Positions 21,272 to 63,270 of a DNA stretch of 64,000 bases are shown in pieces (position 1 is the first letter of the stretch; every line of letters starts with the position of its first letter). Source of the DNA: Verrucomicrobiales bacterium (GTDB taxonomy: Bacteria > Verrucomicrobiota > Verrucomicrobiia > Limisphaerales > F1-12-MAGs170). The position numbers and the translations under genes are program-made. The notes below the pieces were generated by a model, which saw nothing but the letters and a program-made list of their open reading frames with translations, made no database searches and was not told the DNA's origin. The stretch spans positions 208 to 64,207 of the forward strand of contig SXMN01000316.1 of assembly GCA_005777315.1 (NCBI GenBank). The letters run 5' to 3'.

Positions 21272-21445
21272 ATGTCGGTGCATCTGAAAATTGTCGGTGG
21301 AGCGCTGACATGTGCTGCAAGCCAGTCGCAGCAGTATCAATGGCTCGCTCTCACGCCGAACCTGCTGCGGCTGGTGCTGCGCACACAGCCGCGCTCCTGG
21401 CCGACAGCCAAGTTCACCGACAACTTGTGGATGTACTGCTTGATG
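21272..21445 (+). repeat. structured ~170-nt repeat, copy 1 (rod-like imperfect hairpin)
   Basis: Near-identical to 28077-28250. The inner 13-bp stem pairs CCAGTCGCAGCAG (21322-21334) with CTGCTGCGGCTGG (21362-21374). The outer arms pair GTGCATC..TTGTCGGTG with CACCGACAA..GATGTAC. Confidence 0.7.
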
Positions 21446-28076: not shown

Positions 28077-28250
28077 TGCATCGGTGCATCCACAAGTCGG
28101 TGGAGCGCGACTGTGCTGAAAGCCAGTCGCAGCAGTAACGGTGGCTCGCCCTCACGCCAAACCTGCTGCGGCTGGTGCTGCGCACACAACCGCGCTCCTG
28201 GCCGACAGCCAGGTTCACCGCCAACTTGTGGATGCACTGCTGCTGCATCG
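28077..28250 (+). repeat. structured ~170-nt repeat, copy 2
   Basis: Same element as 21272-21445. The outer stem pairs GTGCATCCACAAGT with ACTTGTGGATGCAC (14 bp perfect). P2 pairs GGAGCGCG with CGCGCTCC. The inner 13-bp stem is identical to copy 1. Confidence 0.7.
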
Positions 28251-33053: not shown

Positions 33054-33818
33054 ATGAAACGACCCATTCCAGCGGGCTTGGCCTTTACCTTGATCGAACT
33101 GCTCGTGGTGATCGCCATCATCGCCATTCTTGCGGGCATGTTGTTGCCGGCGCTCGGACGCGCGAAGGAAAAGGGCAGGACGATCCGGTGCAACAGCAAC
33201 TTGCACCAGCATGCCTTGGGCTTTGCCATGTATGCGGACGACAACCAGGACTTCTATCCCGCCTACGAGGATTGGGCCACGTTGGGTGGCACCACCGGAA
33301 GAATGACGCTTGCCGGCGGCCGCGTTCCCAAAGAGAGGCGTCCCATGAACACCTACGTACCGGCAGCGGAAGCCTGGCATTGCCCTTCAGATAAAGGCGA
33401 CTCTCTCTGGAAAACCATGTTCACGTCCGAGTTCAAGAGCGCCTTTCCGTCAGGACGCCAGAGCAGTTGCTACGAGGCTTACGGCAACAGTTACCTGACG
33501 CCTTGGTCGGTGGAGACACTGCGCATCCAGCACGTCACGGGCAACTCGAAGGCCGCGAAAGGAACTCCGGAAGCGACCCCCATGAAAGCGGGCGAGATTG
33601 GGAAAAGCCCTTCCAACAAACTCGTCTCCGGCGACTGGCCTACGTGGGCTGACCGGGACAAAAAGGACACGTGGAGTCAATGGCACAACGTGAAGGGACA
33701 GTACCGTTTCAACATGCTATTCGGCGATGGCCATACCGAGTTTTTCCAATTTCCTGACGAGGCTTACAAGTGGAACTACACGGGGCCGAAACCGGACCCG
33801 AACTACAAGTGGTGGTAG
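33054..33818 (+). CDS. prepilin-type N-terminal cleavage/methylation domain protein, H-X9-DG family
   Basis: [52 protein letters not shown] and C-terminal LFGDGHTEF. The internal Met start is preferred. Confidence 0.85.
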
Positions 33819-35235: not shown

Positions 35236-35949
35236 ATGCTTGCGAAAATGGTACTCCAGTTTGTGATCTGGATGGCGATGGTTGGCTTGCCGTGGAACTC
35301 GAGTGCCGATGAATCGAATCATCGTGAACTAGCGCTCGTCAAGCAGGCCATCGCTGCAACCGAATCGGTGGTGCTTGGAAAATGGGGCTACACCGTCACC
35401 TCCGTGAACGATGGGAAAACGAGGGTGGAGAAGTTCGACCCGACTGAACCGAAAACAAACCGATGGCAGCTCGTGCTCAAGAACGGAAAAGCCCCCGGTT
35501 CCAAAGACCTGAGGAATTACACTGAAGAACGCCTGCATCGACCTTCGGGAGCAGGTCCGCAAGGCCTTGGCATCCAAATCGACAAATCCAGCCTGCAGGT
35601 TGTTAGCAACGACACCGCCCGGATCATCTGCTCCTTTCGCCTGAAGGCGGACGACGACGAATCCCGGCTCATGGCCGCCAATGCCAAGGGGACGCTTGTC
35701 GTCTCCAGGATGCCGCTGTTTGTGGAAAGCCTCCAGGTCACCAACACGGGTCGTATCAGTAGTTCCGCCAGACTCTCCATCCGCGAGTTCAACACCCGTG
35801 TCCAGTTTCGACCCGATCCCAAGCGGGGCGACCCATTGATGGTCTCCCATGTTACGCGCGTCCGCGGTCGTCTCCTGCTGGTGAAGTCGCTCAACGTGGA
35901 ATCGGCAATTTCCTACAAAGACTTCCGTTGGATGGGAGACAAGCTGTGA
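35236..35949 (+). CDS. hypothetical secreted protein
   Basis: ORF 35056..35949. The internal Met gives the signal-like MLAKMVLQFVIWMAMVGLPWNSSA. No recognisable family. Confidence 0.4.
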   Translation: MLAKMVLQFVIWMAMVGLPWNSSADESNHRELALVKQAIAATESVVLGKWGYTVTSVNDGKTRVEKFDPTEPKTNRWQLVLKNGKAPGSKDLRNYTEERLHRPSGAGPQGLGIQIDKSSLQVVSNDTARIICSFRLKADDDESRLMAANAKGTLVVSRMPLFVESLQVTNTGRISSSARLSIREFNTRVQFRPDPKRGDPLMVSHVTRVRGRLLLVKSLNVESAISYKDFRWMGDKL

Positions 35950-36145
35950 GATCGAGCGGGAAATCTGCGACCCGGGAAGCGGTCAGGAAGGGGCCTTGAG
36001 AATGGCTACAAGCTGTATTTTTCCATCGCCATCAGACCGTGAGTACAGGCCCGGTCTCGCCGCCAATCGCCACCGTCTCAGGTAGCGTTGTCTTCCTTCA
36101 AACCACTGACCTTGAGCCGGCTTGCGGCACAGCCGCCAAGTCACG

Positions 36146-36216
36146 GAGACGCAAAGAGAGGTTCTCCAGTTTATCAGCCGAGGGGCGTCTTTGGGTCTTG
36201 GCGTTGAATCAAAACA
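36146..36216 (+). repeat. partial copy (3' half) of the TA-array repeat family
   Basis: GAGACGCAAAGAGAGGTTCTCCAGTTT...CTTGGCGTTGAATCAAAAC aligns with the 3' halves of R1, R3 and R4 (GACGCAAAGCC..GAAGAGCTTTCCAGTTT..CTTGGCGTTGAATTC / GATTCAAAACC). It ends 40 nt upstream of the antitoxin ATG. Confidence 0.5.
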
Positions 36217-36256
36217 CAGGCTTTGCAAAAGGGCGGGCGCTGGGTATTTTGCAGCC

Positions 36257-36472
36257 ATGAGCACCGTGGCTGAAATCAAAACAGCATTCAAACGACTTCC
36301 TGAATCCGATCGCTCGAAACTCGCCGAATGGATTCGGGAAAGCGTGGAAGAACCGGACCCGAAACTGGAGGCGGCCCTGCGTCATTCGTTACGCAGTCCG
36401 CTGAAAAGATACAAACCCGGCCACTTCGCCGCGCTGGCATCGCGCAACCGCCGTCGCGCAAACGCCGCGTGA
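36257..36472 (+). CDS. putative antitoxin (addiction-module component-like) of a ParE pair
   Basis: 71 aa. MSTVAEIKTAFKRLPESDRSKLAEWIRESV resembles the small addiction module component family. Its stop overlaps the GTG start of the ParE-like gene (GTGA at 36469-36472). Confidence 0.55.
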   Translation: MSTVAEIKTAFKRLPESDRSKLAEWIRESVEEPDPKLEAALRHSLRSPLKRYKPGHFAALASRNRRRANAA

Positions 36473-36795
36473 AGGCGGTGGAAGTCTTCGTCCGTCACGA
36501 TGCCGAGTTGGACGCGTTCGGTTATTTCCAGCGCATCTTCGAACACAATTCGGACGCCGCACTCCGCTTTCTCAAAGCCGTGGATCAAACGGTGGAAAAT
36601 CTGGCGTTGCATCCGCTTAAAGGCAGACTGCGACATTTTCGCGGGCGCGATTTGAAGCACGTCCGCTCATGGCGGGTGGATGATTTTGAAGACTATCTGA
36701 TATTCTATCGGTTTACCGAGCCACATTTAGAAATCCTCCGGGTCAAGCATGGCGCAATGAATTTTCCTGCCGCGTTGCGGCGTTTGCCCGATTGA
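36469..36795 (+). CDS. parE: ParE/RelE-superfamily toxin
   Basis: VKAVEVFVRHDAELDAFGYFQRIFEHNSDAALRFLKAVDQTVENLALHPLKGRL...DYLIFYRFTEPHLEILRVKHGAMN is the typical ParE pattern. The GTG start is coupled to the upstream small ORF. Confidence 0.75.
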   Translation: MKAVEVFVRHDAELDAFGYFQRIFEHNSDAALRFLKAVDQTVENLALHPLKGRLRHFRGRDLKHVRSWRVDDFEDYLIFYRFTEPHLEILRVKHGAMNFPAALRRLPD

Positions 36796-36904
36796 AGGGT
36801 GGTTTGGCGTTGATCGGGTTGAAGCAGTCTTCTCAGGGCTGATTAAGCCTTGTTCGAGGGTGGCGGGCCAACTACCTTTCAGCCATCAGCAGGGTCATTG
36901 TCGC

Positions 36905-38947
36905 ATGAAGAGAGCCCTATCCATCAGCCTTGTGTTCACGCTCCTTTGCGAGGCTGCTTTCGCGGCTGGCTTACCTGATCCGCGCGATCCCGAGGCACGC
37001 AACGTGCAACCGCCTTTGCTCGAAAAGGCGAAAAATTGGTGGGCATTTCAGCCGGTGAAGAAACCAACCGTGCCCGTGACGAGTGATCGCAACACGGTAG
37101 ATGTGTTTCTCGATGAAAAGATCGATGCCGCTGGTCTGGACAAAGCGCCTCCGGCTGACAAACGCACGCTGCTGCGCCGGGCAACCTTCGATCTCAGCGG
37201 ATTGCCTCCAACACCGGAAGAAGTCGCCGCTTTCCTTGAGGATCATTCTTCTGCTGCTTTCGAGCGTGTCGTGGATCGCCTCCTGGCTTCGCCGGCGTAC
37301 GGCCAACGCTGGGCGCGGCACTGGCTGGATGTCGTCCGTTATGCTGACTACCACGATGCCGATCCCAAGGCTCGCACCGCGAGTTGCGAACCGTTGGAAG
37401 CCTGGCGCTATCGCGATTGGGTTGTCGATTCGTTCAATCAGGATCTGCCGTTTGACCAGTTCATCCTGCATCAGATCGCCGGCGATTTGCTTCCGAACCC
37501 GAATGGTGAGGGAATTTATTCGGCGGGGTTGATCGCGACGGGATTTCTGGTCAATGGCGCATGGGATCGCGGCGATGCCGACAAGGAAAAAATGGTCAGT
37601 GACATGGTCGATGACCAGATCGACACGGTGGGCAAGGCGTTCCTCGGGCTGACGCTGGGCTGTGCCCGCTGCCACGATCACAAGTTCGACCCGATTTCCA
37701 ATCAGGATTACTACGCGCTGGCAGGGGTTTTCTACAGCACCCATATCATGGAGAACCTGGGGACGAAGGGTGGCGAAATCACACTCAAACGCGTGCCGCT
37801 GGTCTCACCCTCCGTCGCGGCGCGCAGGGACGGCCTCGCACTTCAACTCGAAGCGGTCAAAGCGAAGCTTGCCGCGCTCGACAAACTATCGCCAAAAGTC
37901 GCCACCAATCATCCCGAGCGGATCATGCTGGAAAAAGAGCGCGATGCCGTGCAGGCGGAATTGCCGCCGCCTTATCCGGTGGCGTTGACGGTTCAGGAAG
38001 GCGGAATGCCCGGTGGACTTTTTCCCAACATCCAGGATGTGCCGATCCATCTTCGCGGCAGCTACGCCAAGCTTGGTGAAATAGTCCCGCGTCGTATGCC
38101 TGCCTTCTTCGCCGGGGACTCACAGCAGTCAATCCGTCAAGGCAGTGGACGCCGCGAATTGGCGGACTGGGTCGCTTCAAAGAACAATCCACTCACCGCG
38201 CGCGTCATCGTCAATCGTGTCTGGCAATGGCACTTCGGCGAGGGGCTGGTCCGCACACCGAACAACTTCGGCTTGCTCTCCGAACCACCGAGTCATCCAC
38301 CGCTGCTCGATTGGTTGGCCGCGCAGTTCATCGATGATGGCTGGTCCCTCAAAAAGCTTCACCGCCGGGTCATGCTTTCTGCCGCTTATCAACGGGCCAG
38401 TGCATATCCGCAGCACGGAGCTGCTCGCGATCCCGAAAATCGCTGGCTCGCGCGCTTCTCCGCACGGCGTCTGGAAGCAGAAGCCATCCGCGATGCGCTG
38501 TTGGTTGCTGGCGGCAATCTGGACACAGCTTCGGGCGGTCCTGCTGGACCGGACATAAACAGCCCGAGACGTTCGCTGTATGTCCAAACCGCCCGATGGG
38601 ACCGAAGTAATTTCGCGACGCTCTTTGACGCGGCGAATCCAGACGCGTCCGTGGAAAAGCGAACCGGCTCAACCGTCGCTCCGCAGGCGCTCTTCATGAT
38701 GAACCACGGCTTCGTTCAAACCCAGGCCGGGCATCTTGCAGCGCGCCTGCTTCGCGAAACCGGGCGCGACGAAACCGCTCGCATCGAGCGGGCCTATCAA
38801 TTGTTGTTCGGACGCGCGCCTCACCCTGACGAAATTCAAATTGGCCGCAACCTGCTCGCGCAATTCGGCGGATCAAAGGAAGAAACCGCGTGGCGTGATT
38901 ACACGCACGTGCTCCTGTGCAGCAATGAATTCATTTATGTGGACTGA
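36905..38947 (+). CDS. DUF1549/DUF1553 (PSCyt2/PSD1) domain protein, secreted
   Basis: Signal peptide MKRALSISLVFTLLCEAAFA. RRATFDLSGLPPTPEEVAAFLED...AYGQRWARHWLDVVRYAD is DUF1549. CARCHDHKFDPISNQDYYALAGVF and NPLTARVIVNRVWQWHFG are DUF1553. Confidence 0.85.
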   Translation: MKRALSISLVFTLLCEAAFAAGLPDPRDPEARNVQPPLLEKAKNWWAFQPVKKPTVPVTSDRNTVDVFLDEKIDAAGLDKAPPADKRTLLRRATFDLSGLPPTPEEVAAFLEDHSSAAFERVVDRLLASPAYGQRWARHWLDVVRYADYHDADPKARTASCEPLEAWRYRDWVVDSFNQDLPFDQFILHQIAGDLLPNPNGEGIYSAGLIATGFLVNGAWDRGDADKEKMVSDMVDDQIDTVGKAFLGLTLGCARCHDHKFDPISNQDYYALAGVFYSTHIMENLGTKGGEITLKRVPLVSPSVAARRDGLALQLEAVKAKLAALDKLSPKVATNHPERIMLEKERDAVQAELPPPYPVALTVQEGGMPGGLFPNIQDVPIHLRGSYAKLGEIVPRRMPAFFAGDSQQSIRQGSGRRELADWVASKNNPLTARVIVNRVWQWHFGEGLVRTPNNFGLLSEPPSHPPLLDWLAAQFIDDGWSLKKLHRRVMLSAAYQRASAYPQHGAARDPENRWLARFSARRLEAEAIRDALLVAGGNLDTASGGPAGPDINSPRRSLYVQTARWDRSNFATLFDAANPDASVEKRTGSTVAPQALFMMNHGFVQTQAGHLAARLLRETGRDETARIERAYQLLFGRAPHPDEIQIGRNLLAQFGGSKEETAWRDYTHVLLCSNEFIYVD

Positions 38948-54560: not shown

Positions 54561-55319
54561 ATGAAACCCTCCAAACTCCTCAGGGCATTCACACTCATCG
54601 AACTGCTCGTTGTGATTGCCATCATCGCTATCCTGGCGGGCATGTTGCTCCCGGCACTCTCACGAGCGAAGTTCCGCGCAAAAGTTGTGAACTGCACCTC
54701 GAATTACCGCCAGTGGGGAATCGCGGTGAACTTGTATGCGGTGGACGATACCCGTGGCCGGCTCCCAGCCTTCAAAATGCCGCGAACAGGTTTGAATCCT
54801 TGGGACGTCTCGCTCGACATGGCGCCAAAGCTCGAGCCCTACGGCTTGACGGTGCCAATGTGGTACTGCCCAACCCGGCCCTGGGATTTCGCGGACGCGC
54901 AAAAGTGGTTTTCGACTCAGAAGAAGGGCGAGCAACTGCGCACAATCCAGGACTTGAACAAGTATTTCGTCCGGCAGTACGCCAACTTCGCCATCATCTG
55001 GCATTGCTGGTGGGTGCCTCGTCAGCTTGATGACGGCACCATGTTTCCGACACCCACCACTTCCGGCACGTTCACTCGCACCAAGGATGGGTGGCCCACA
55101 CGTCTGGAGGATCCAGTGGCCTCGCTCCAGCCGGTGATTACTGATCTATGCCTGGCATCAGGCACCAGAACCACCAATGTCGCCAGCGCGCAAGGAGGGC
55201 ATCCCATCGGAAACAAGCCTCAAAGCGTGAACCTCGCCTTCGCCGACGGCCATGTTGAATCGCGCAACTTCAAGCAGATTCAGTGGCAGCAGTCGGGCAA
55301 CTGGACCACATTCTATTGA
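54561..55319 (+). CDS. prepilin-type N-terminal cleavage/methylation domain protein, H-X9-DG family
   Basis: [51 protein letters not shown] and C-terminal [14 protein letters not shown]. Confidence 0.85.
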
Positions 55320-56930: not shown

Positions 56931-57143
56931 TTACGGCGTGAACGGCCCTTTCGCCACTTTCAATAACTCCGCCGCCAGCTCCGGGCTGTCCACTTCCAAG
57001 TCCAATGCTCCACCCTCCCTCACAGCAGCCTCCAATGTCAGACGTCTCTTGCCGTCGGTCAGAACAACCGTGTCGCCTTGATGAGTCTCCGCAATGAGCT
57101 GGCTCATTTGTTCTTTGGCCACATGGACCATCAACGTCTTCAT
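56931..57143 (-). CDS. small antitoxin-like protein (possibly truncated by an in-frame TAA)
   Basis: 70 aa. MKTLMVHVAKEQMSQLIAETHQGDTVVLTDGKRRLTLEA has the shape of Phd/AbrB-type antitoxin N-termini. No recognisable toxin partner. Confidence 0.35.
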   Translation of the reverse strand: MKTLMVHVAKEQMSQLIAETHQGDTVVLTDGKRRLTLEAAVREGGALDLEVDSPELAAELLKVAKGPFTP

Positions 57144-57283
57144 GAAGGCAACTTAGCCGGTGCAAAGTTTCTCAACAAGTCTGGGTCTATTGGTGACTAA
57201 CCCGTTCCGACCCAAACTAGAGCTGCGCCGGGTAGAAACGGGTAGAGAAACTACAACCCAGACGATTGATTCGGTCAGGATTT

Positions 57284-57874
57284 CTAGATTTCCTGTTTTC
57301 CAGTGGCACGCGACTCTCGCTCCTCGAACCATCGCCGCCGATAGTCTGCGGAGAATGCAGCGACGAGCGACACGGCAATAACCAAGAAAAGGAACAGGCT
57401 GAACTGCGCTTTGCCTGCCCCAGAATCAACCTCAAAGGAGTTTGCTACTACACTTCCGAGCGCAGTAGCCCATGCAACGCAATAAAGCAGATGAACCTGA
57501 GACGCCCATTCATCGAGATGCGGTTGAATGCCCTTCTTGTCTTGACGTCTCTTCCATCGAGCTTCGTCACGGATAGCCTCACCTTCGAGCGGCTTAAATG
57601 GATTGAAATGGCGCGCACCGATGCGGCTCCTCGGTCGTAGTCCAAGTGCGAGCCAAAGCGCAGCACGACTAAGCGTCGGATATAGAAGAGAGCGATGGAC
57701 CGCATAAATAATGCTGCCGGCAAGTAGCGCAACAAAGAATAAAGCTGCTGAACTGTCTGTGGCTGGCAGTCCATGTGCGCCTCTGCTGTAGCGATAAGCG
57801 TAAACAAACACGCCTCCACAGAAGAAGTATCGGAGCAATTCAGCGAGGCTAAGTGTTTCGAGCGTCTTCACCAC
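57284..57874 (-). CDS. orphan 4-TM membrane protein
   Basis: 196 aa with helices FFCGGVFVYAY, ALFFVALLAGSIIYAV, VHLLYCVAWATALGSVV and FSLFLFLVIAVSLVAAF. It sits in a visibly more AT-rich stretch. No family recognised. Confidence 0.5.
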   Translation of the reverse strand: MVKTLETLSLAELLRYFFCGGVFVYAYRYSRGAHGLPATDSSAALFFVALLAGSIIYAVHRSLLYPTLSRAALWLALGLRPRSRIGARHFNPFKPLEGEAIRDEARWKRRQDKKGIQPHLDEWASQVHLLYCVAWATALGSVVANSFEVDSGAGKAQFSLFLFLVIAVSLVAAFSADYRRRWFEERESRATGKQEI

Positions 57875-59519: not shown

Positions 59520-59571
59520 GTGAAGACACATAGCTCATACTGGGGAGCTTTTCAATTACCGTGAAAGGGTC

Positions 59572-59775
59572 GTGAAGAGGCCGGTCAACGTTTCGCTCCC
59601 ATTTGTCGGTTCTCCCGCTCATGCCCCAAGCAGCGAGTGGAGTGCCGCCCGATGAAATCTGGAAACCCTGAAGATTGAACCAACCCTTCTCCTCCCGCCG
59701 AGTTTGTTGATTGGAGCTCTGACGCAAAGCCTTGAAGGATTTTTCAGTTTTCCCTGCGCTTTGGCGTTCAATTCT
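59572..59775 (+). repeat. TA-array repeat R1 (~200 bp)
   Basis: Shares ordered blocks with R2-R5: CCGGTCAAY, CATTTGYYGGTTCTCCC, GAGTGGAGTGCCGCC, GAAATCTGGAAACCCTGAAG, TTGTTGATTGGA..CTGACGCAAAGCC and TTGGCGTTCAATTC. Confidence 0.8.
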
Positions 59776-59851
59776 TTGCTCCGTCGCACTTCGACACTCC
59801 ATCCGCGTCCGGTGGTTGCGCGGATTGGTTTCTTAAAGTAAAAATTGAAAG

Positions 59852-60118
59852 ATGACGATCACACTGACAGCCGAGCAGGAAAAATTCATCGCGGAACAAG
59901 TGGGCAGCGGCCATTACCACTCCACTGCGGATGTCATCGCACAAAGCCTCGGCATGTTGCGGGCACAGGAGGAATTCGTCCGCTCAAACGCAGCCGAATT
60001 GCGCGAGAAAATCGCCAGCGGCATGGAACAAATCCGTCGCGGCGAGGTCGTGGACGGGAAAACAGCCATCAAAAATCTCCGAGAGAAGCTGGGCCAGCGC
60101 GAACGCAGCGCGCGATGA
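59852..60118 (+). CDS. parD: ParD-type (RHH/COG3609) antitoxin
   Basis: MTITLTAEQEKFIAEQVGSGHYHSTADVIAQSLGMLRAQEEF...LREKIASGMEQIRRGEVVDG is the canonical ParD pattern. Its stop overlaps the ParE ATG (ATGA at 60115-60118). Confidence 0.8.
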   Translation: MTITLTAEQEKFIAEQVGSGHYHSTADVIAQSLGMLRAQEEFVRSNAAELREKIASGMEQIRRGEVVDGKTAIKNLREKLGQRERSAR

Positions 60119-60408
60119 GTTCGTATCGCTATTCAGCGGATGCCAACGCTGACATCGAGGAGATAGTCTTCTACATTTTCGACCTCAACCCGGTCGCCGC
60201 GCATCATTTTCTCACTGCGCTGGAAGAAGCTTGTGAATTGCTGGCCGCGCATCCTCTCATGGGGAGGCCACGCCCGGGATTTGGCGAAGGCCTGCGTTCG
60301 TTTTCTATTGGGAACTATTTGATCTTCTACATCCCGGCACCACATGGGATTGACGTTTCTCGCATCATCTATGGCGGTCGTGATTTGCCTAAAATGTTCA
60401 GCCGGTGA
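60115..60408 (+). CDS. parE: ParE toxin
   Basis: MSSYRYSADANADIEEIVFYIFDLNPVAAHHFLTALEEACELLAAHPLMGRPR...NYLIFYIPAPHGIDVSRIIYGGRDL is the canonical ParE pattern. Confidence 0.85.
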   Translation: MSSYRYSADANADIEEIVFYIFDLNPVAAHHFLTALEEACELLAAHPLMGRPRPGFGEGLRSFSIGNYLIFYIPAPHGIDVSRIIYGGRDLPKMFSR

Positions 60409-60431
60409 AAATTCCACCCTTGAAGGGGTCC

Positions 60432-60655
60432 TGAAGGGGCCGGTCAATAGCTTTGATAACTACGCCCTCATTTGTTGGTTCTCCCCCTCTTGAGGCAAGC
60501 TTCGAGTGGAGTGCCCCTCGATGGAATCTGGAATCCCTGAACACTAAGCCTCCTGGTCTCCGGGTTTATTTGATTGGAATTCTGACGCCAAGCTGCGAAG
60601 AGCGTCCCAGTTGTCCTGCGAGTCCGCACTTTGGAGATTTCGCGGTGAAATAAAT
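60432..60655 (+). repeat. TA-array repeat R2
   Basis: Starts 24 nt after the ParE stop. It has the same ordered blocks as R1 and its 3' end, TTGGAGATTTCGCGGTGAAATAA, is shared with R5. Confidence 0.8.
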
Positions 60656-60667
60656 GAGTCACGACCG

Positions 60668-60822
60668 CCCTCATCCCGGCCTTCTCCCCAAGGAGAAGGA
60701 GAACCGTTCGCCGCCTCGCTCGAAAACCAGCGACTGTGCCGACCAAACGGCCACCCCCATGACCAGAGACGGACCATTGCTGTTCCTTCTCCCTGGGGGG
60801 AGAAGGTCAGGATGAGGGCGAG
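60668..60822. repeat. 155-bp hairpin/MITE-like element with 24-bp terminal inverted repeats, each arm also a local hairpin
   Basis: CGCCCTCATCCCGGCCTTCTCCCC (60668-60691) versus GGGGAGAAGGTCAGGATGAGGGCG (60799-60822). Local hairpins pair CCTTCTCC with GGAGAAGG at 60682-60701 and 60787-60808. Confidence 0.7.
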
Positions 60823-60860
60823 TGTTGAAACCGTTTTGAATCGTCTTAACTTTTTCCTGC

Positions 60861-61067
60861 CGGTCAATAGTTCCGAACTCTTAACCGCATTTGCTCGTTC
60901 CCCGCTTGTGCCTTGGGCTTCAAACCGAATGCCGCATGATGAAATCTGGAAACCCTGAAGTCTGAACGAATTCTCCTCCTGCCCTCCGGGTTCTTATTGC
61001 TTGGACTTCTGATGACGAGCCGAAGAGAGATTACCAGCTATTTCAGAGCCTTGGCGTTGAATTCCTC
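60861..61067 (+). repeat. TA-array repeat R3
   Basis: GCCGGTCAATAGTT...GATGAAATCTGGAAACCCTGAAG...CTGCCCTCCGGGTT...CCTTGGCGTTGAATTCC. It ends 20 nt before the MazF stop at 61087. Confidence 0.8.
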
Positions 61068-61086
61068 GCCGCGCCCTTTTACAGCG

Positions 61087-61591: not shown

Positions 61592-61876
61592 TTATCTTTC
61601 CCAACTTGGTTTGCAAGGCGCGTCTCCCGTCATTCCCGTGACTTCTTGGCGCTTGGGGCGAATGAAGCTGTCCACCGCCATACGCCCACGCGTGAAGTCG
61701 GTGTTCGCGAGTGGAACGGAGTAACCATCGGAACGCGCCCGGCTCGTAATCTGACAAAGCACCAAGTCATCGCCCGCAAGATCAGCAACGACCAGCGCGG
61801 GACGGCGTTTGCCGGATTGGAGGTTGGTTTGCGGAAAAGGGAGAACGACGACTTCGCCGACTACAGGCTTGCCCAT
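61592..61876 (-). CDS. MazF/PemK-like toxin (C-terminus atypical)
   Basis: MGKPVVGEVVVLPFPQTNLQSGKRRPALVVADLAGDDLVLCQITSRARSDGYSVPL...DSFIRPKR is the PemK pattern. The last ~20 aa do not look like the family, whereas an alternative frame does. Confidence 0.65.
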   Translation of the reverse strand: MGKPVVGEVVVLPFPQTNLQSGKRRPALVVADLAGDDLVLCQITSRARSDGYSVPLANTDFTRGRMAVDSFIRPKRQEVTGMTGDAPCKPSWER

Positions 61877-62064
61877 GCAGTGTCCTCCACGGGCGTGTTC
61901 CAATCCTTCGCGAGCGCGGATTTGCTCAACAGCAGGCCGTTGAAAGACTCGTCCTCGTTCTTAAGTCGCAGGAAGCGCGCGAAGTCATAGACCTCATAGA
62001 CCTCGCGCTGCAATGGTTCGAGCATAGCGGCTACTTCTTTTTTGATCAACTCGCATGTGCTCAC
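61861..62064 (-). CDS. DUF2281-like antitoxin
   Basis: (V)STCELIKKEVAAMLEPLQREVYEVYDFARFLRLKNE...ALAKDWNTPVEDTAWASL. The EV.DF..FL motif and the WxxPEED..W tail are typical. GTG start at 62064 (alternative ATG 62025). It overlaps the toxin start by 16 nt. Confidence 0.6.
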   Translation of the reverse strand: MSTCELIKKEVAAMLEPLQREVYEVYDFARFLRLKNEDESFNGLLLSKSALAKDWNTPVEDTAWASL

Positions 62065-62120
62065 GGCGGCAACGTATCGAGTTGACCGGGGTCTGGTAAG
62101 ACTGCTGCCGTTCAGGAAGT

Positions 62121-62330
62121 GTGAAAGTTGGTCAGTAATTTCGACCTTCGGCCGCATTGGTTGGACCGCCCGCTGCGGGCCCCATGCTTCGAGTGGAATG
62201 CCGCCATATCGAATCTGGCATCTCTGAAGCCTGAGCGAAATCATTTCCTGCCCTCCGGGTTAATTGATTGGAATTTTGACGCAAAGCCGCGAAGAGCTTT
62301 CCAGTTTTCCCCGCGGCTCGTTGCTTGATT
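62121..62330 (+). repeat. TA-array repeat R4
   Basis: GTTGGTCAGTAAT...CGAGTGGAATGCCGCC...GAATCTGGCATCTCTGAAG...CTGCCCTCCGGGTTAATTGATTGGAATTTTGACGCAAAGCCGCGAAGAGCTTTCCAGTTTTCC. Confidence 0.8.
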
Positions 62331-62376
62331 CAAAACCCCGCTTGCCAGCGTATCGCAACGCCGCTAATTTTTGTCC

Positions 62377-62562: not shown

Positions 62563-62857
62563 AATCTGGATCGTGGACCTGGGCATGGCTGCGAAAGTCC
62601 GCCCCTGCCTGATTCTGACTCCGCAACCGCGTGGTGATGACTTGGACACCTACACCGTTGTCGCCCACACCACTGTCAGTCGCGGCAACCGCTGGGAAGT
62701 TTCAATTCCAAAGCCTTACCTGGATGCGGAAGGCGCGTTTGACGTGCAACGAATCGCCACGGTTGCGAGCGTAAAGCTGGAACGTAAACTTGGTGAGCTC
62801 ACTCGCACGGAATTGGATTCGATCCTCGACCGTCTTGCGGAACGGTTCGGGATCTGA
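62531..62857 (+). CDS. MazF/PemK-family toxin
   Basis: KPGEIWIVDLGMAAKVRPCLILTPQP...VVAHTT...FDVQRIATVASVKLERKLGELTRTELDSILDRL is the PemK pattern. The start is ATG 62531 or 62540. Confidence 0.75.
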   Translation: MPRMPAAKPGEIWIVDLGMAAKVRPCLILTPQPRGDDLDTYTVVAHTTVSRGNRWEVSIPKPYLDAEGAFDVQRIATVASVKLERKLGELTRTELDSILDRLAERFGI

Positions 62858-63070
62858 AGCCCACCCGCAGTTCCACCAAACTTTTTGGTTCTCCCGCTCG
62901 TGCCGCAGGAATTGAGCGCCGTGCCACTCAATGGAATCTGGAATCCCTGAAGAGTGAGCCAATGCTTCTTCTGCCCTCCGAGCTTGTTGATTGAAATTCT
63001 GACGCAACGCCACGAAGAGCTTTCCAGTTGTCCTGCGAGTTCGCCCCTTGGAGATATTGCGGTGAAATAA
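62853..63070 (+). repeat. TA-array repeat R5
   Basis: Begins at the MazF stop. GGTTCTCCCGCTCGTGCC...AATGGAATCTGGAATCCCTGAAG...CTGCCCTCCGAGCTTGTTGATTGAAATTCTGACGCAACGCC..GAAGAGCTTTCCAGTTGTCCTGCGAG..TTGGAGATATTGCGGTGAAATAA. Confidence 0.8.
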
Positions 63071-63270
63071 CCGAAAAACCACTTACACAGACTACTTTAC
63101 AAAACCCCGTGACAGGATGAGCCGCCGCCTAAATCAAATCATCCGCCTGGCAGCCGGTCCCAGCACGTCACTTTAGAACAGCCCTGGTGACTGCGCGTCC
63201 TTGCCATTTCTCACTGGCGGACTTCGGCTCGTTTGCTAGCTTCCGCACTGTTTCCACCAATCGTCACATT

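What the first reader, a model, noticed from the sequence alone, without database searches (positions are those of the whole stretch)
36040..36830. A second, solitary ParE TA module 24 kb away is flanked by fragments of the same repeat family
Upstream of the antitoxin/ParE pair (36257-36795), the stretch 36146-36216 aligns with the 3' half of R1, R3 and R4 and ends in CTTGGCGTTGAATC (36197-36210). Immediately after the ParE stop, the sequence ATTGAAGGGTGGTTTGGCGTTGATCGGGTTGAAG (about 36791-36824) combines two motifs. One is TTGAAGGG(G)T, also found just after the other ParE stop at 60421-60430. The other is a second TTGGCGTTGAT copy. The module is therefore bracketed by direct TTGGCGTTGA(A/T) motifs, as expected if the repeat ends are the junctions at which a TA cassette was inserted or excised. 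This links the repeat family specifically to TA genes at an independent locus.
Basis: seen in the sequence. Interest (0 to 1): 0.6.

Follow-up and report, generated by a model that had tools for sequence, protein, structure and literature searches.

The report
Solo toxin-antitoxin cassette beside decayed repeat
A small ParE toxin-antitoxin gene pair forms a discrete 0.6-kb unit next to a worn-down copy of the repeat that separates similar gene pairs in an array 23 kb away, which hints at an integron-like cassette system that does not use the usual integron sites; how the unit moved is not shown.

Summary
The sequence facts hold. A ParE-type toxin-antitoxin (TA) operon lies at 36257-36795. An exact 10-nt direct repeat, TTGGCGTTGA, brackets it at 36198 and 36804, and the same words end repeat R3 in the TA array at 59.5-63.1 kb.

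The claimed similarity of 36146-36216 to the repeat R is weak. A full R1-R5 nhmmer profile finds nothing there. A profile of only the 3' third of R has its best non-self hit in the window at 36150-36209, with E=0.086.

Comparative data add support. The closest TA homologues from other metagenomes lie in unrelated gene contexts. Their DNA homology runs only over 36201-36806 (89% to L141) or 36186-36814 (85% to L125), so it stops at the two motifs. L141 and L125 also carry R-3'-like sequence upstream.

The TTGAAGGG(G)T motif carries no information. The last ~36 nt of the unit are an antisense fragment of a PemK toxin gene.

R fails the tests for an integron attC site. I found no recombinase, no empty site and no R copy outside this genome's own assemblies apart from those two upstream stretches.

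Best reading: this is a solo cassette of an R-bounded TA cassette system. It is integron-like in layout, and its mechanism is unproven.

The parts
35970..36007 (+). Possible 5' start of a decayed full-length repeat copy (R0); suggestive only
   Evidence: It matches 28 of 38 positions of the R2 5' start (60416-60452) and is the best pairwise hit in the window. The span 35970-36208 is 239 nt, against about 214-234 nt for R1-R5. A 5'-start profile and a global alignment do not support it.
36143..36210 (+). Degenerate copy of the 3' third of repeat R, ending in CTTGGCGTTGAATC
   Evidence: It is the best non-self hit of the R 3'-third profile in the window (36150-36209, E=0.086). It ranks 1 of 4800 in the empirical scan. 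The summed pairwise score gives z=8.3 against shuffles. It is collinear with GACGCAAAG / CCAGTTT / CTTTGG..GCGTTGAA of R4 and R5.
36198..36207 (+). Left copy of the TTGGCGTTGA direct repeat, at the junction of the R end and the cassette
   Evidence: Homology to L141 starts at 36201. The stretch 36192-36223 aligns to the junction of R4 and cassette D at 62314-62343, p=0.002.
36201..36806 (+). Conserved TA cassette unit (promoter, antitoxin, ParE, 11-nt tail)
   Evidence: 89.1% identity over 607 nt to L141. Homology to L140 and L142 also ends at 36806. Homology to L125 runs 36186-36814 and to L161 36177-36787. All these copies sit in different gene contexts.
36223..36250 (+). Inferred promoter: TTGCAA, 16-nt spacer, TATTTT, ending 6 nt before the ATG (leaderless-type)
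   Evidence: Read from the sequence and conserved in L141, L125 and L161. It is below the threshold of the consensus scan, so this is inference.
36257..36472 (+). Antitoxin gene (71 aa)
   Evidence: Weak matches to Unstab_antitox PF09720 (E=0.003) and TIGR02574 (E=0.016), both below their cut-offs. Its stop overlaps the toxin start in GTGA.
36469..36795 (+). ParE toxin gene (108 aa)
   Evidence: PF05016, E=8.5e-14. There are 332 homologues at E<=1e-10, up to 89% identical. It is 38% identical to the array ParE at 60115-60408.
36771..36806 (+). Tail of the unit, including ParE codons RLPD and the stop: an antisense fragment of a PemK-like toxin gene
   Evidence: 30 of 36 positions match window 61796-61831 (z=11.9). 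In L142 the same homology continues for 128 nt at 84%.
36804..36813 (+). Right copy of the TTGGCGTTGA direct repeat. The TTG belongs to the unit; GCGTTGA lies beyond all cross-genome homology
59558..59796 (+). R1, the first repeat of the TA cassette array
   Evidence: nhmmer 2.8e-68.
60418..60657 (+). R2
60842..61085 (+). R3, which ends in CCTTGGCGTTGAATTCC (motif at 61051)
62106..62342 (+). R4
62837..63074 (+). R5, the last repeat of the array
61592..61903 (-). PemK-like toxin gene in array cassette C, the in-window homologue of the sequence that forms the tail of the 36-kb unit
   Evidence: PF02452, E=3.9e-6.

Best explanation
The ParE/antitoxin pair is a solo cassette of the same repeat-bounded TA cassette system that forms the array at 59.5-63.1 kb. 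That array is R1-ParDE-R2-(inverted-repeat element)-R3-(two PemK/MazF TA pairs)-R4-(PemK TA)-R5.

What is shown:
- A transferable unit of about 606 nt (36201-36806) carries its own promoter.
- A decayed R 3' third sits immediately upstream of it.
- The R-terminal words TTGGCGTTGA occur at both edges of the unit.
- The unit's tail is a leftover of a neighbouring PemK cassette.

What is inferred:
- The 3' end of R is the junction at which cassettes are joined.
- The locus arose in one of two ways. In the first, a circular cassette recombined with the terminal core of a resident R. In the second, a mini-array of R, cassette and R lost everything between GGTTTG and the last ~7-10 nt of the second R.
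- The conserved R core (AATCTGGAAWCCCTGAA, TTGATTGGAATTCTGACGC) would then be the binding platform of a recombinase that is not encoded in this window.

I put the R-derived solo-cassette reading at about 0.55 and true site-specific recombination at about 0.3.
For: - Five direct R copies, 55-71% identical to each other, separate four unrelated cassettes whose genes lie on both strands.
- TTGGCGTTGAW occurs 3 times against 0.09 expected, at both edges of the module and at the end of R3.
- Homology to L141 (89%) spans exactly 36201-36806, homology to L125 spans 36186-36814, and homology to L140 and L142 ends at 36806, all in unrelated contexts.
- The best non-self hit of the R 3'-third profile in the window is 36150-36209, which ranks 1 of 4800 in the empirical scan.
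- The same profile's best hit among 21 fetched loci is L141:50-89, upstream of the closest TA homologue.
- L141 upstream aligns to R1 over about 75 nt, including CCAGTTTTCCCTGCGC. The z scores are 10.8 for L141, 3.8 for L125 and 8.3 for the window, against 2.0 or below for upstream regions of more distant TA homologues.
- The left edge aligns across the R4/cassette D junction, p=0.002.
- PSD1 orthologues in related genomes have no TA upstream.
Against: - The full R1-R5 profile gives no hit at this locus. The sub-profile hit is E=0.086, and the margins in the rank-based tests are small.
- Only 10 nt downstream resemble R.
- No empty site was found, and no cassette-order polymorphism: other assemblies of both loci are 100% identical.
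- No recombinase was found among the ORFs and called genes checked against Pfam.
- L125, L141 and L161 lack an equivalent direct repeat at both ends.
- In L141 about 100 nt, containing a 20-nt tandem repeat, separate the R-like part from the unit.
- The PemK-derived tail shows a history of illegitimate or homologous recombination.
- Apart from the weak upstream stretches in L141 and L125, R was not found outside this genome. The pattern scans used were crude.
Confidence: 0.55

Rival explanations
1. The locus is a fragment of an array, moved or left behind by ordinary homologous or illegitimate recombination. R is a passive spacer, such as a regulatory, terminator-like or MITE/REP-like element. 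The TTGGCGTTGA repeat is a microhomology scar, not a recombination core.
For: - The unit's tail is a breakpoint inside antisense PemK sequence, and L140-142 keep the rest of that gene.
- The ParE C-terminus after ALR differs in every lineage.
- L161 breaks elsewhere, after GCGGCGTT, and has almost no R upstream.
- No recombinase was found in the window.
- The R copies show no convincing conserved fold.
Against: - The same 10 nt at both edges equal the end of R3.
- The window and L125 share the identical right breakpoint GGTTTG| although their flanks differ.
- R copies are only 55-71% identical yet keep a strictly conserved 17-nt core, which suggests selection on a function.
- All five copies have one orientation, although the cassettes' genes lie on both strands.
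Confidence: 0.27
2. It is a canonical integron remnant. The array would be a cluster of attC sites lacking an integrase (CALIN), R would contain an unusual attC, and the 36-kb module would be a cassette placed at a secondary site by an IntI encoded elsewhere in the genome.
For: - The layout is that of directly repeated sites separating short cassettes, including TA cassettes in either orientation, with no integrase nearby. This is what CALINs look like, and integrons are reported in Verrucomicrobia (PMC4889954).
- GTTGAAT at 36203 and 61056 fits the R' consensus GTTRRRY.
- The 3' third of R4 folds into a 17-bp imperfect hairpin.
Against: - No R copy has both an RYYYAAC box and a GTTRRRY box.
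- Single-strand folding z scores run from -2.0 to +0.8, so a hairpin is not conserved.
- The repeat unit is about 215-240 nt and is conserved in sequence rather than in structure.
- There are n+1 repeats for n cassettes.
- The 36-kb unit carries no site at its 3' end.
Confidence: 0.1
3. It is coincidence. An ordinary horizontally acquired or ancestral TA operon has flanks that happen to contain short words also present in R.
For: The full-profile nhmmer search finds nothing. The sub-profile hit is E=0.086. About two chance 13-mer matches to some R copy are expected in a 64-kb window (my estimate). Direct repeats of 10 nt or more flank 2.5% of random segments.
Against: - The best non-self hit of the 3'-third profile falls within 110 nt of the only other TA operon.
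- Independent homologues L141 and L125 also carry R-3'-like sequence upstream.
- The homology boundaries coincide with the motifs.
Confidence: 0.08

Closest known systems
Integron cassette arrays without a nearby integrase (CALIN), and cassettes at secondary sites (IntegronFinder paper, PMC4889954)
   Same: Short cassettes are separated by directly oriented repeated sites. TA cassettes occur in either orientation and carry their own promoters. No integrase lies nearby. A solo cassette sits elsewhere in the chromosome, and the junction word GCG|TTGAAT resembles G|TTRRRY.
   Different: The repeats are about 215-240 nt and conserved in sequence. They have no R''/R' box pair and no conserved hairpin. 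There are n+1 repeats for n cassettes. The solo cassette has the repeat upstream, not at its 3' end.
TA cassettes of sedentary chromosomal integrons such as the Vibrio cholerae superintegron (PMC13108822, listed; the content is from my own knowledge)
   Same: Several type II TA modules (ParE/RelE, PemK/MazF-like) are stockpiled in one repeat-bounded array.
   Different: Here the array consists almost only of TA modules. It has five sites, and its repeat family is unrelated to VCR-type attC sites.
pdif modules of Acinetobacter plasmids: discrete modules, often TA, bounded by XerC/XerD sites (from my own knowledge, not tested here)
   Same: Small TA-carrying modules have precise boundaries and are found in different contexts.
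   Different: pdif sites are 28-bp sites in inverse orientation on plasmids. Here the repeats are direct, about 230 nt long and chromosomal. No dif-like palindrome is evident at the junctions.
Tandem site-specific integration at an att site with a shared core (lambda-type attP of about 240 bp; from my own knowledge)
   Same: An identical short core lies at both junctions. The site is of similar size and contains several short repeated words (TGRAA 2-4 times per copy against 0.8 expected).
   Different: No integrase is present. The outermost repeats, R1 and R5, are full-length rather than half sites. No tRNA or other gene serves as a target.

Membership tests
Type II toxin-antitoxin module, ParE/RelE superfamily | The toxin matches the ParE_toxin family above its curated cut-off | tested here: met
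   PF05016, 52.3 bits against a cut-off of 23, E=8.5e-14.
Type II toxin-antitoxin module, ParE/RelE superfamily | A small upstream antitoxin gene in the same operon, overlapping or abutting the toxin gene | tested here: met
   The 71-aa ORF at 36257-36472 overlaps the toxin start in GTGA. The pairing is conserved in L125 and L141. The antitoxin's own family assignment is below cut-off (PF09720 18.1 against 23.3; TIGR02574 15.2 against 31.9).
Type II toxin-antitoxin module, ParE/RelE superfamily | Toxicity that the antitoxin neutralises | not testable with these tools
   This needs expression experiments.
Integron attC site | Inverse core R'' (RYYYAAC) and core R' (GTTRRRY) at the two ends of the site | tested here: not met
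   0 of 5 R copies have both boxes on either strand. Only R3 and the 36-kb left edge have GTTGAAT.
Integron attC site | An imperfect palindrome that folds as a single strand into a conserved hairpin with extrahelical bases | tested here: inconclusive
   The 3' thirds folded as single-stranded DNA give z scores of -1.6, -1.3, +0.2, -2.0 and +0.8. R4 and R1 can form bulged hairpins; R3 and R5 cannot. RNAalifold finds no well-supported common helix with only 5 sequences. The IntegronFinder covariance model was not available.
Integron attC site | Size about 57-141 bp (from my own knowledge), conserved in structure rather than in sequence | tested here: not met
   The R unit is about 215-240 nt and has a strictly conserved 17-nt sequence core.
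CALIN (cluster of attC sites lacking an integron integrase) | At least two attC sites on one strand within 4 kb and no intI nearby (PMC4889954) | tested here: inconclusive
   Five direct repeats lie within 3.5 kb, and no integrase is in the window or in the 6.4 kb beyond it. The repeats do not qualify as attC sites by the tests above.
R repeat family of this window (R1-R5) | A significant match to a profile built from R1-R5 | tested here: inconclusive
   Full profile: no hit at 35.9-36.9 kb. 3'-third profile: 36150-36209, E=0.086, the best non-self hit. 5'-start profile: no hit. Pairwise, rank-based and comparative evidence is positive.
pdif (XerC/XerD) module | Pairs of 28-bp XerC-spacer-XerD sites in inverse orientation at the module boundaries | not tested
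   No dif model for this lineage was available. The boundary repeats here are direct, not inverted.

The most novel reading that the evidence does not exclude
R is the recombination site of an undescribed cassette-capture system in Verrucomicrobiota (Pedosphaera-like lineages). The system would be integron-like in logic, but it would use sequence-conserved sites of about 230 nt with a terminal TTGGCGTTGA core and an unknown recombinase, and it would be largely dedicated to shuffling toxin-antitoxin modules. The 36-kb locus would be a cassette inserted at a solo R.
Probability: 0.2. Interest if true: 0.8.

Novelty: new variant of a known kind. Interest (0 to 1): 0.5.

Why it matters
Integrons are the only well-understood system that stockpiles promoterless or self-expressed cassettes between repeated sites. 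If the R-bounded units really are mobile cassettes, this would be a second cassette architecture, in a poorly studied phylum. It would show how TA modules spread as units of about 0.6 kb between unrelated chromosomal contexts.

Even on the conservative reading, the locus documents modular TA evolution at nucleotide resolution. The same ParE gene is paired with different antitoxins: the 71-aa type in the window, L125 and L141, and a ParD-like type in L140. Its last codons are borrowed from the antisense strand of a PemK gene.

Tried and rejected
- **Genome-contig scan.** The 17-nt R core pattern was too short.
- **Metagenome contigs and viral-contig scans.** The gapped R pattern gave 13 chance loci and 0 loci. 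R was therefore not recovered elsewhere by exact-pattern search, which is not proof of absence.
- **Rfam.** Nothing at gathering thresholds over the whole window and nothing at relaxed thresholds over the array. ARAGORN found no tRNA or tmRNA.
- **Plasmid collection.** No match for the module or for R1.
- **Strain variants.** The other assemblies of both loci (L002-4, L157, L158) are 100% identical to the window, so they reveal no polymorphism.
- **Empty-site search.** The 237-aa upstream neighbour has no homologue at all. PSD1 orthologues conserve only the PSD1-DUF1501 pair.
- **R0 as a full-length repeat.** The global alignment is not above background and the 5'-start profile finds nothing. 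Only a pairwise patch of 28 of 38 positions supports it.
- **Homology between the 36-kb antitoxin and the cassette D antitoxin.** Not significant, E=1.8, so I dropped the claim that they share a promoter.
- **Coding potential of R.** Reading frames are not conserved between copies.
- **GC composition.** The module is not anomalous.
- **GGCGTT or GCGGCGT as breakpoint words.** They recur at junctions, but they are common (35 GGCGTT on the + strand of the window; 3 GCGGCGT in 850 nt of L161), so I do not rely on them.

Full report
**Source and setting.** The window is contig SYFQ01000174.1 of the MAG GCA_005800335.1. Named close homologues of its proteins come from Pedosphaera sp. and other Verrucomicrobiota, so I infer a Verrucomicrobiota genome. 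The ORFs and called genes checked against Pfam are ordinary chromosomal genes: PSCyt2/PSD1-DUF1501 pairs, prepilin-type proteins, a glycogen debranching enzyme and an LRR protein. None is a recombinase or transposase. The window has no tRNA or tmRNA gene and no Rfam family.

**The module.**
- The antitoxin is at 36257-36472 and the toxin at 36469-36795. They form a typical overlapping (GTGA) two-gene operon.
- The toxin is a clear ParE (PF05016, E=8.5e-14). The antitoxin has only sub-threshold matches to 'addiction module component' families.
- The toxin is 38% identical to the array ParE at 60115-60408, so the two are different family members.
- GC content is unremarkable.

**The repeat family.**
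- Five direct copies of a repeat of about 240 nt lie at 59558-59796, 60418-60657, 60842-61085, 62106-62342 and 62837-63074.
- They separate four cassettes: ParD/ParE on the + strand; an ORF-less inverted-repeat element; MazF/AF2212-like plus PemK/antitoxin, both on the - strand; and antitoxin/PemK on the + strand.
- The copies are only 55-71% identical to each other but share an invariant core, AATCTGGMAWCYCTGAA.
- R1 and R3 end in TTGGCGTTSAAT. R4 ends in a degenerate version. R2 and R5 end in CTTTGG-N7-GCGGTGAAAT.

**Check of the observation.**
- All quoted strings are at the stated positions, except that TTGAAGGGGT starts at 60420.
- TTGGCGTTGAW occurs three times against 0.09 expected: at 36198, at 36804 and at the end of R3.
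- A direct repeat of 10 nt or more across the flanks of a random 539-nt segment occurs in 2.5% of trials. The bracket alone is therefore weak evidence, and what counts is its identity to an R terminus.
It finds nothing at the locus, even at E<=100 with filters off.
- A profile of only the 3' third of R has its best non-self hit in the entire window, on either strand, at 36150-36209(+), E=0.086.
- In an empirical scan of 4800 real 100-nt segments, 36126-36225(+) ranks first, but only 0.5 points above an unrelated segment.
- Nothing downstream of the module resembles R beyond the 10-nt motif.
- TTGAAGGG occurs six times in the window, so it carries no information.

**Comparative evidence.** ParE has hundreds of homologues. 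I fetched the closest ones.
- L141 (88% amino-acid identity) matches the window only over 36201-36806, at 89.1% DNA identity over 607 nt.
- L140 and L142 match up to 36806. L125 matches 36186-36814 (85%). L161 matches 36177-36787 (80.6%).
- The flanking genes differ in every case: a GNAT acetyltransferase in L125, MazG in L161, PemK remnants in L140-142, and the 237-aa orphan gene and PSD1 in the window.
- The unit therefore starts at the GCGTTGA of the left motif and ends at the TTG of the right motif. The 7 nt after the unit (GCGTTGA, 36807-36813) repeat its first 7 nt.

**R-like sequence upstream of the homologues.**
- The upstream regions of L141 and L125 resemble the R 3' third. L141:46-118 aligns to R1 over about 75 nt, including CCAGTTTTCCCTGCGC.
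- L141:50-89 is the best hit of the 3'-third profile among 21 fetched loci (127 kb), E=0.24.
- Summed alignment scores against shuffles give z=10.8 for L141, 3.8 for L125 and 8.3 for the window. Upstream regions of more distant TA homologues give 1.7, 2.0 and -0.7.
- The different copies keep different parts of R. That is what common descent from R predicts, and chance does not.
- The left edge also aligns across the junction of R4 and cassette D, p=0.002.

**The tail of the unit.**
- Repeat D13 (36771-36806 against 61796-61831, 30 of 36 positions) is not chance.
- In L140-142 the sequence after ParE continues for more than 120 nt, at 84% identity, into the antisense N-terminus of a PemK-like toxin gene homologous to 61592-61903(-) in array cassette C.
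- The last ParE codons (RLPD and the stop) and the 11 nt after them are therefore borrowed PemK antisense sequence.
- Across the ParE family, the residues after 'ALR' differ in every lineage.
- The window and L125 share the same break inside this PemK sequence (GGTTTG|) but continue differently.

**A possible full-length R0.**
- 35970-36007 matches the 5' start of R2 at 28 of 38 positions. It is the best pairwise hit of the R 5' starts anywhere in the window.
- It lies 239 nt before the end of the left motif. The same landmarks are about 214-234 nt apart in R1-R5.
- A 5'-start profile and a global alignment do not support it, so I treat it as suggestive only.

**What R is not.**
- It matches no Rfam family. 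It is not coding, because reading frames are not conserved between copies. It is not a tRNA-derived att site.
- It is not a canonical attC. No copy has both RYYYAAC and GTTRRRY. Single-strand folding of the 3' thirds is not consistently stable (z from -2.0 to +0.8). RNAalifold gives no well-supported helix. The unit is much longer than an attC and is conserved in sequence.

**Empty-site test.** This test failed for lack of material. The upstream neighbour has no homologue in 5.8 billion proteins. PSD1 orthologues at 78% and 73% identity keep only the PSD1-DUF1501 pair, and their upstream genes differ and include no TA. That is consistent with a lineage-specific insertion, but the breakpoints cannot be mapped. 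Other assemblies of the same population are identical to the window.

**Interpretation.**
- Shown: the module is a discrete unit of about 606 nt that occurs in unrelated contexts. Its edges coincide with a word that also terminates array repeats. R-3'-like sequence precedes it here and in two other sources.
- Inferred: the 3' terminus of R is a cassette junction. The locus is a solo cassette formed in one of two ways. In the first, a circular cassette recombined with the terminal core of a resident R; identical cores at both junctions are the classic signature of conservative site-specific recombination. In the second, a deletion collapsed a mini-array of R, cassette, PemK' and R onto the last 7-10 nt of the second R.
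- I cannot tell these two apart, and no recombinase is in view.
- The layout is closest to integron cassette arrays without an integrase and to secondary-site cassettes (PMC4889954), but the defining attC features are not met. I therefore file it as a new variant of a known kind, not as an integron.

**Verdict.**
- Observation: partly confirmed.
- Interpretation: partly supported.
- Interest: moderate (0.5). The evidence comes from one MAG plus short metagenomic contigs, and it needs a proper profile search and read-level tests.

Noticed in passing
window 57264-57316 (-): A weak, inverted fragment resembling the R core (GAGTCGCGTGCCACTGGAAAACAGGAAATCTAGAAATCCTGA). It scores nhmmer E=0.025 and tops the empirical scan for the 5' two-thirds of R. 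It lies about 120 nt upstream of a 70-aa ORF (56931-57143, - strand) that has no family match.
   Followed up: partly
window 60658-60841: Array cassette B has no ORF. It consists of a long inverted repeat (60666-60700 paired with 60784-60820, 89-92% complementary). It has sub-threshold Rfam matches to CRISPR-DR57 and whalefall-1, so it may be a REP-like palindromic element.
   Followed up: partly
window 36771-36806 and 61796-61831; L140, L141, L142: The last codons of ParE (RLPD and the stop) are encoded by the antisense strand of a PemK toxin gene. In L140-142 ParE is fused tail-to-head with a truncated PemK TA module. Across the family, the residues after 'ALR' differ in every lineage.
   Followed up: yes
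L140 (ena:ERZ27267811 k141_1182421): A ParE 89% identical to the window's is paired with a different, ParD-like antitoxin (it starts MKVALTPHQEKFI, in a 95-aa ORF cut by the contig end) instead of the 71-aa type. Antitoxins have evidently been swapped between modules.
   Followed up: no
window 35236-35949 (+): The 237-aa gene immediately upstream of the locus has no homologue other than itself among 5.8 billion proteins, and no Pfam match.
   Followed up: partly
window 36905-38947 (+): This PSCyt2/PSD1 protein (680 aa, with a signal-peptide-like N-terminus) lacks the N-terminal PSCyt1 cytochrome domain found in most of its closest homologues (about 776-800 aa). A minority of homologues, at 666-694 aa, also lack it.
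   Followed up: no
L141:118-180: Three tandem copies of a 20-nt unit (GATTYCRGCGNGACRAGTCN) lie between the R-like stretch and the left edge of the TA unit.
   Followed up: no
window 21311-21440 and 28112-28241: A 130-nt direct repeat, 92% identical, with copies 6.8 kb apart. It is unrelated to R.
   Followed up: no
L161:17600-19400 (GCA_964389025.1): A cluster of 300-nt repeats (87-100% identical) carries four small minus-strand ORFs (96, 105, 101 and 105 aa), about 7 kb from the ParE homologue. It may be a duplicated two-gene module.
   Followed up: no
window 33080-33167 and 54584-54671: An 88-nt repeat, 82% identical, encodes the prepilin-type N-terminal methylation motif of two different proteins. 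This is ordinary paralogy.
   Followed up: no
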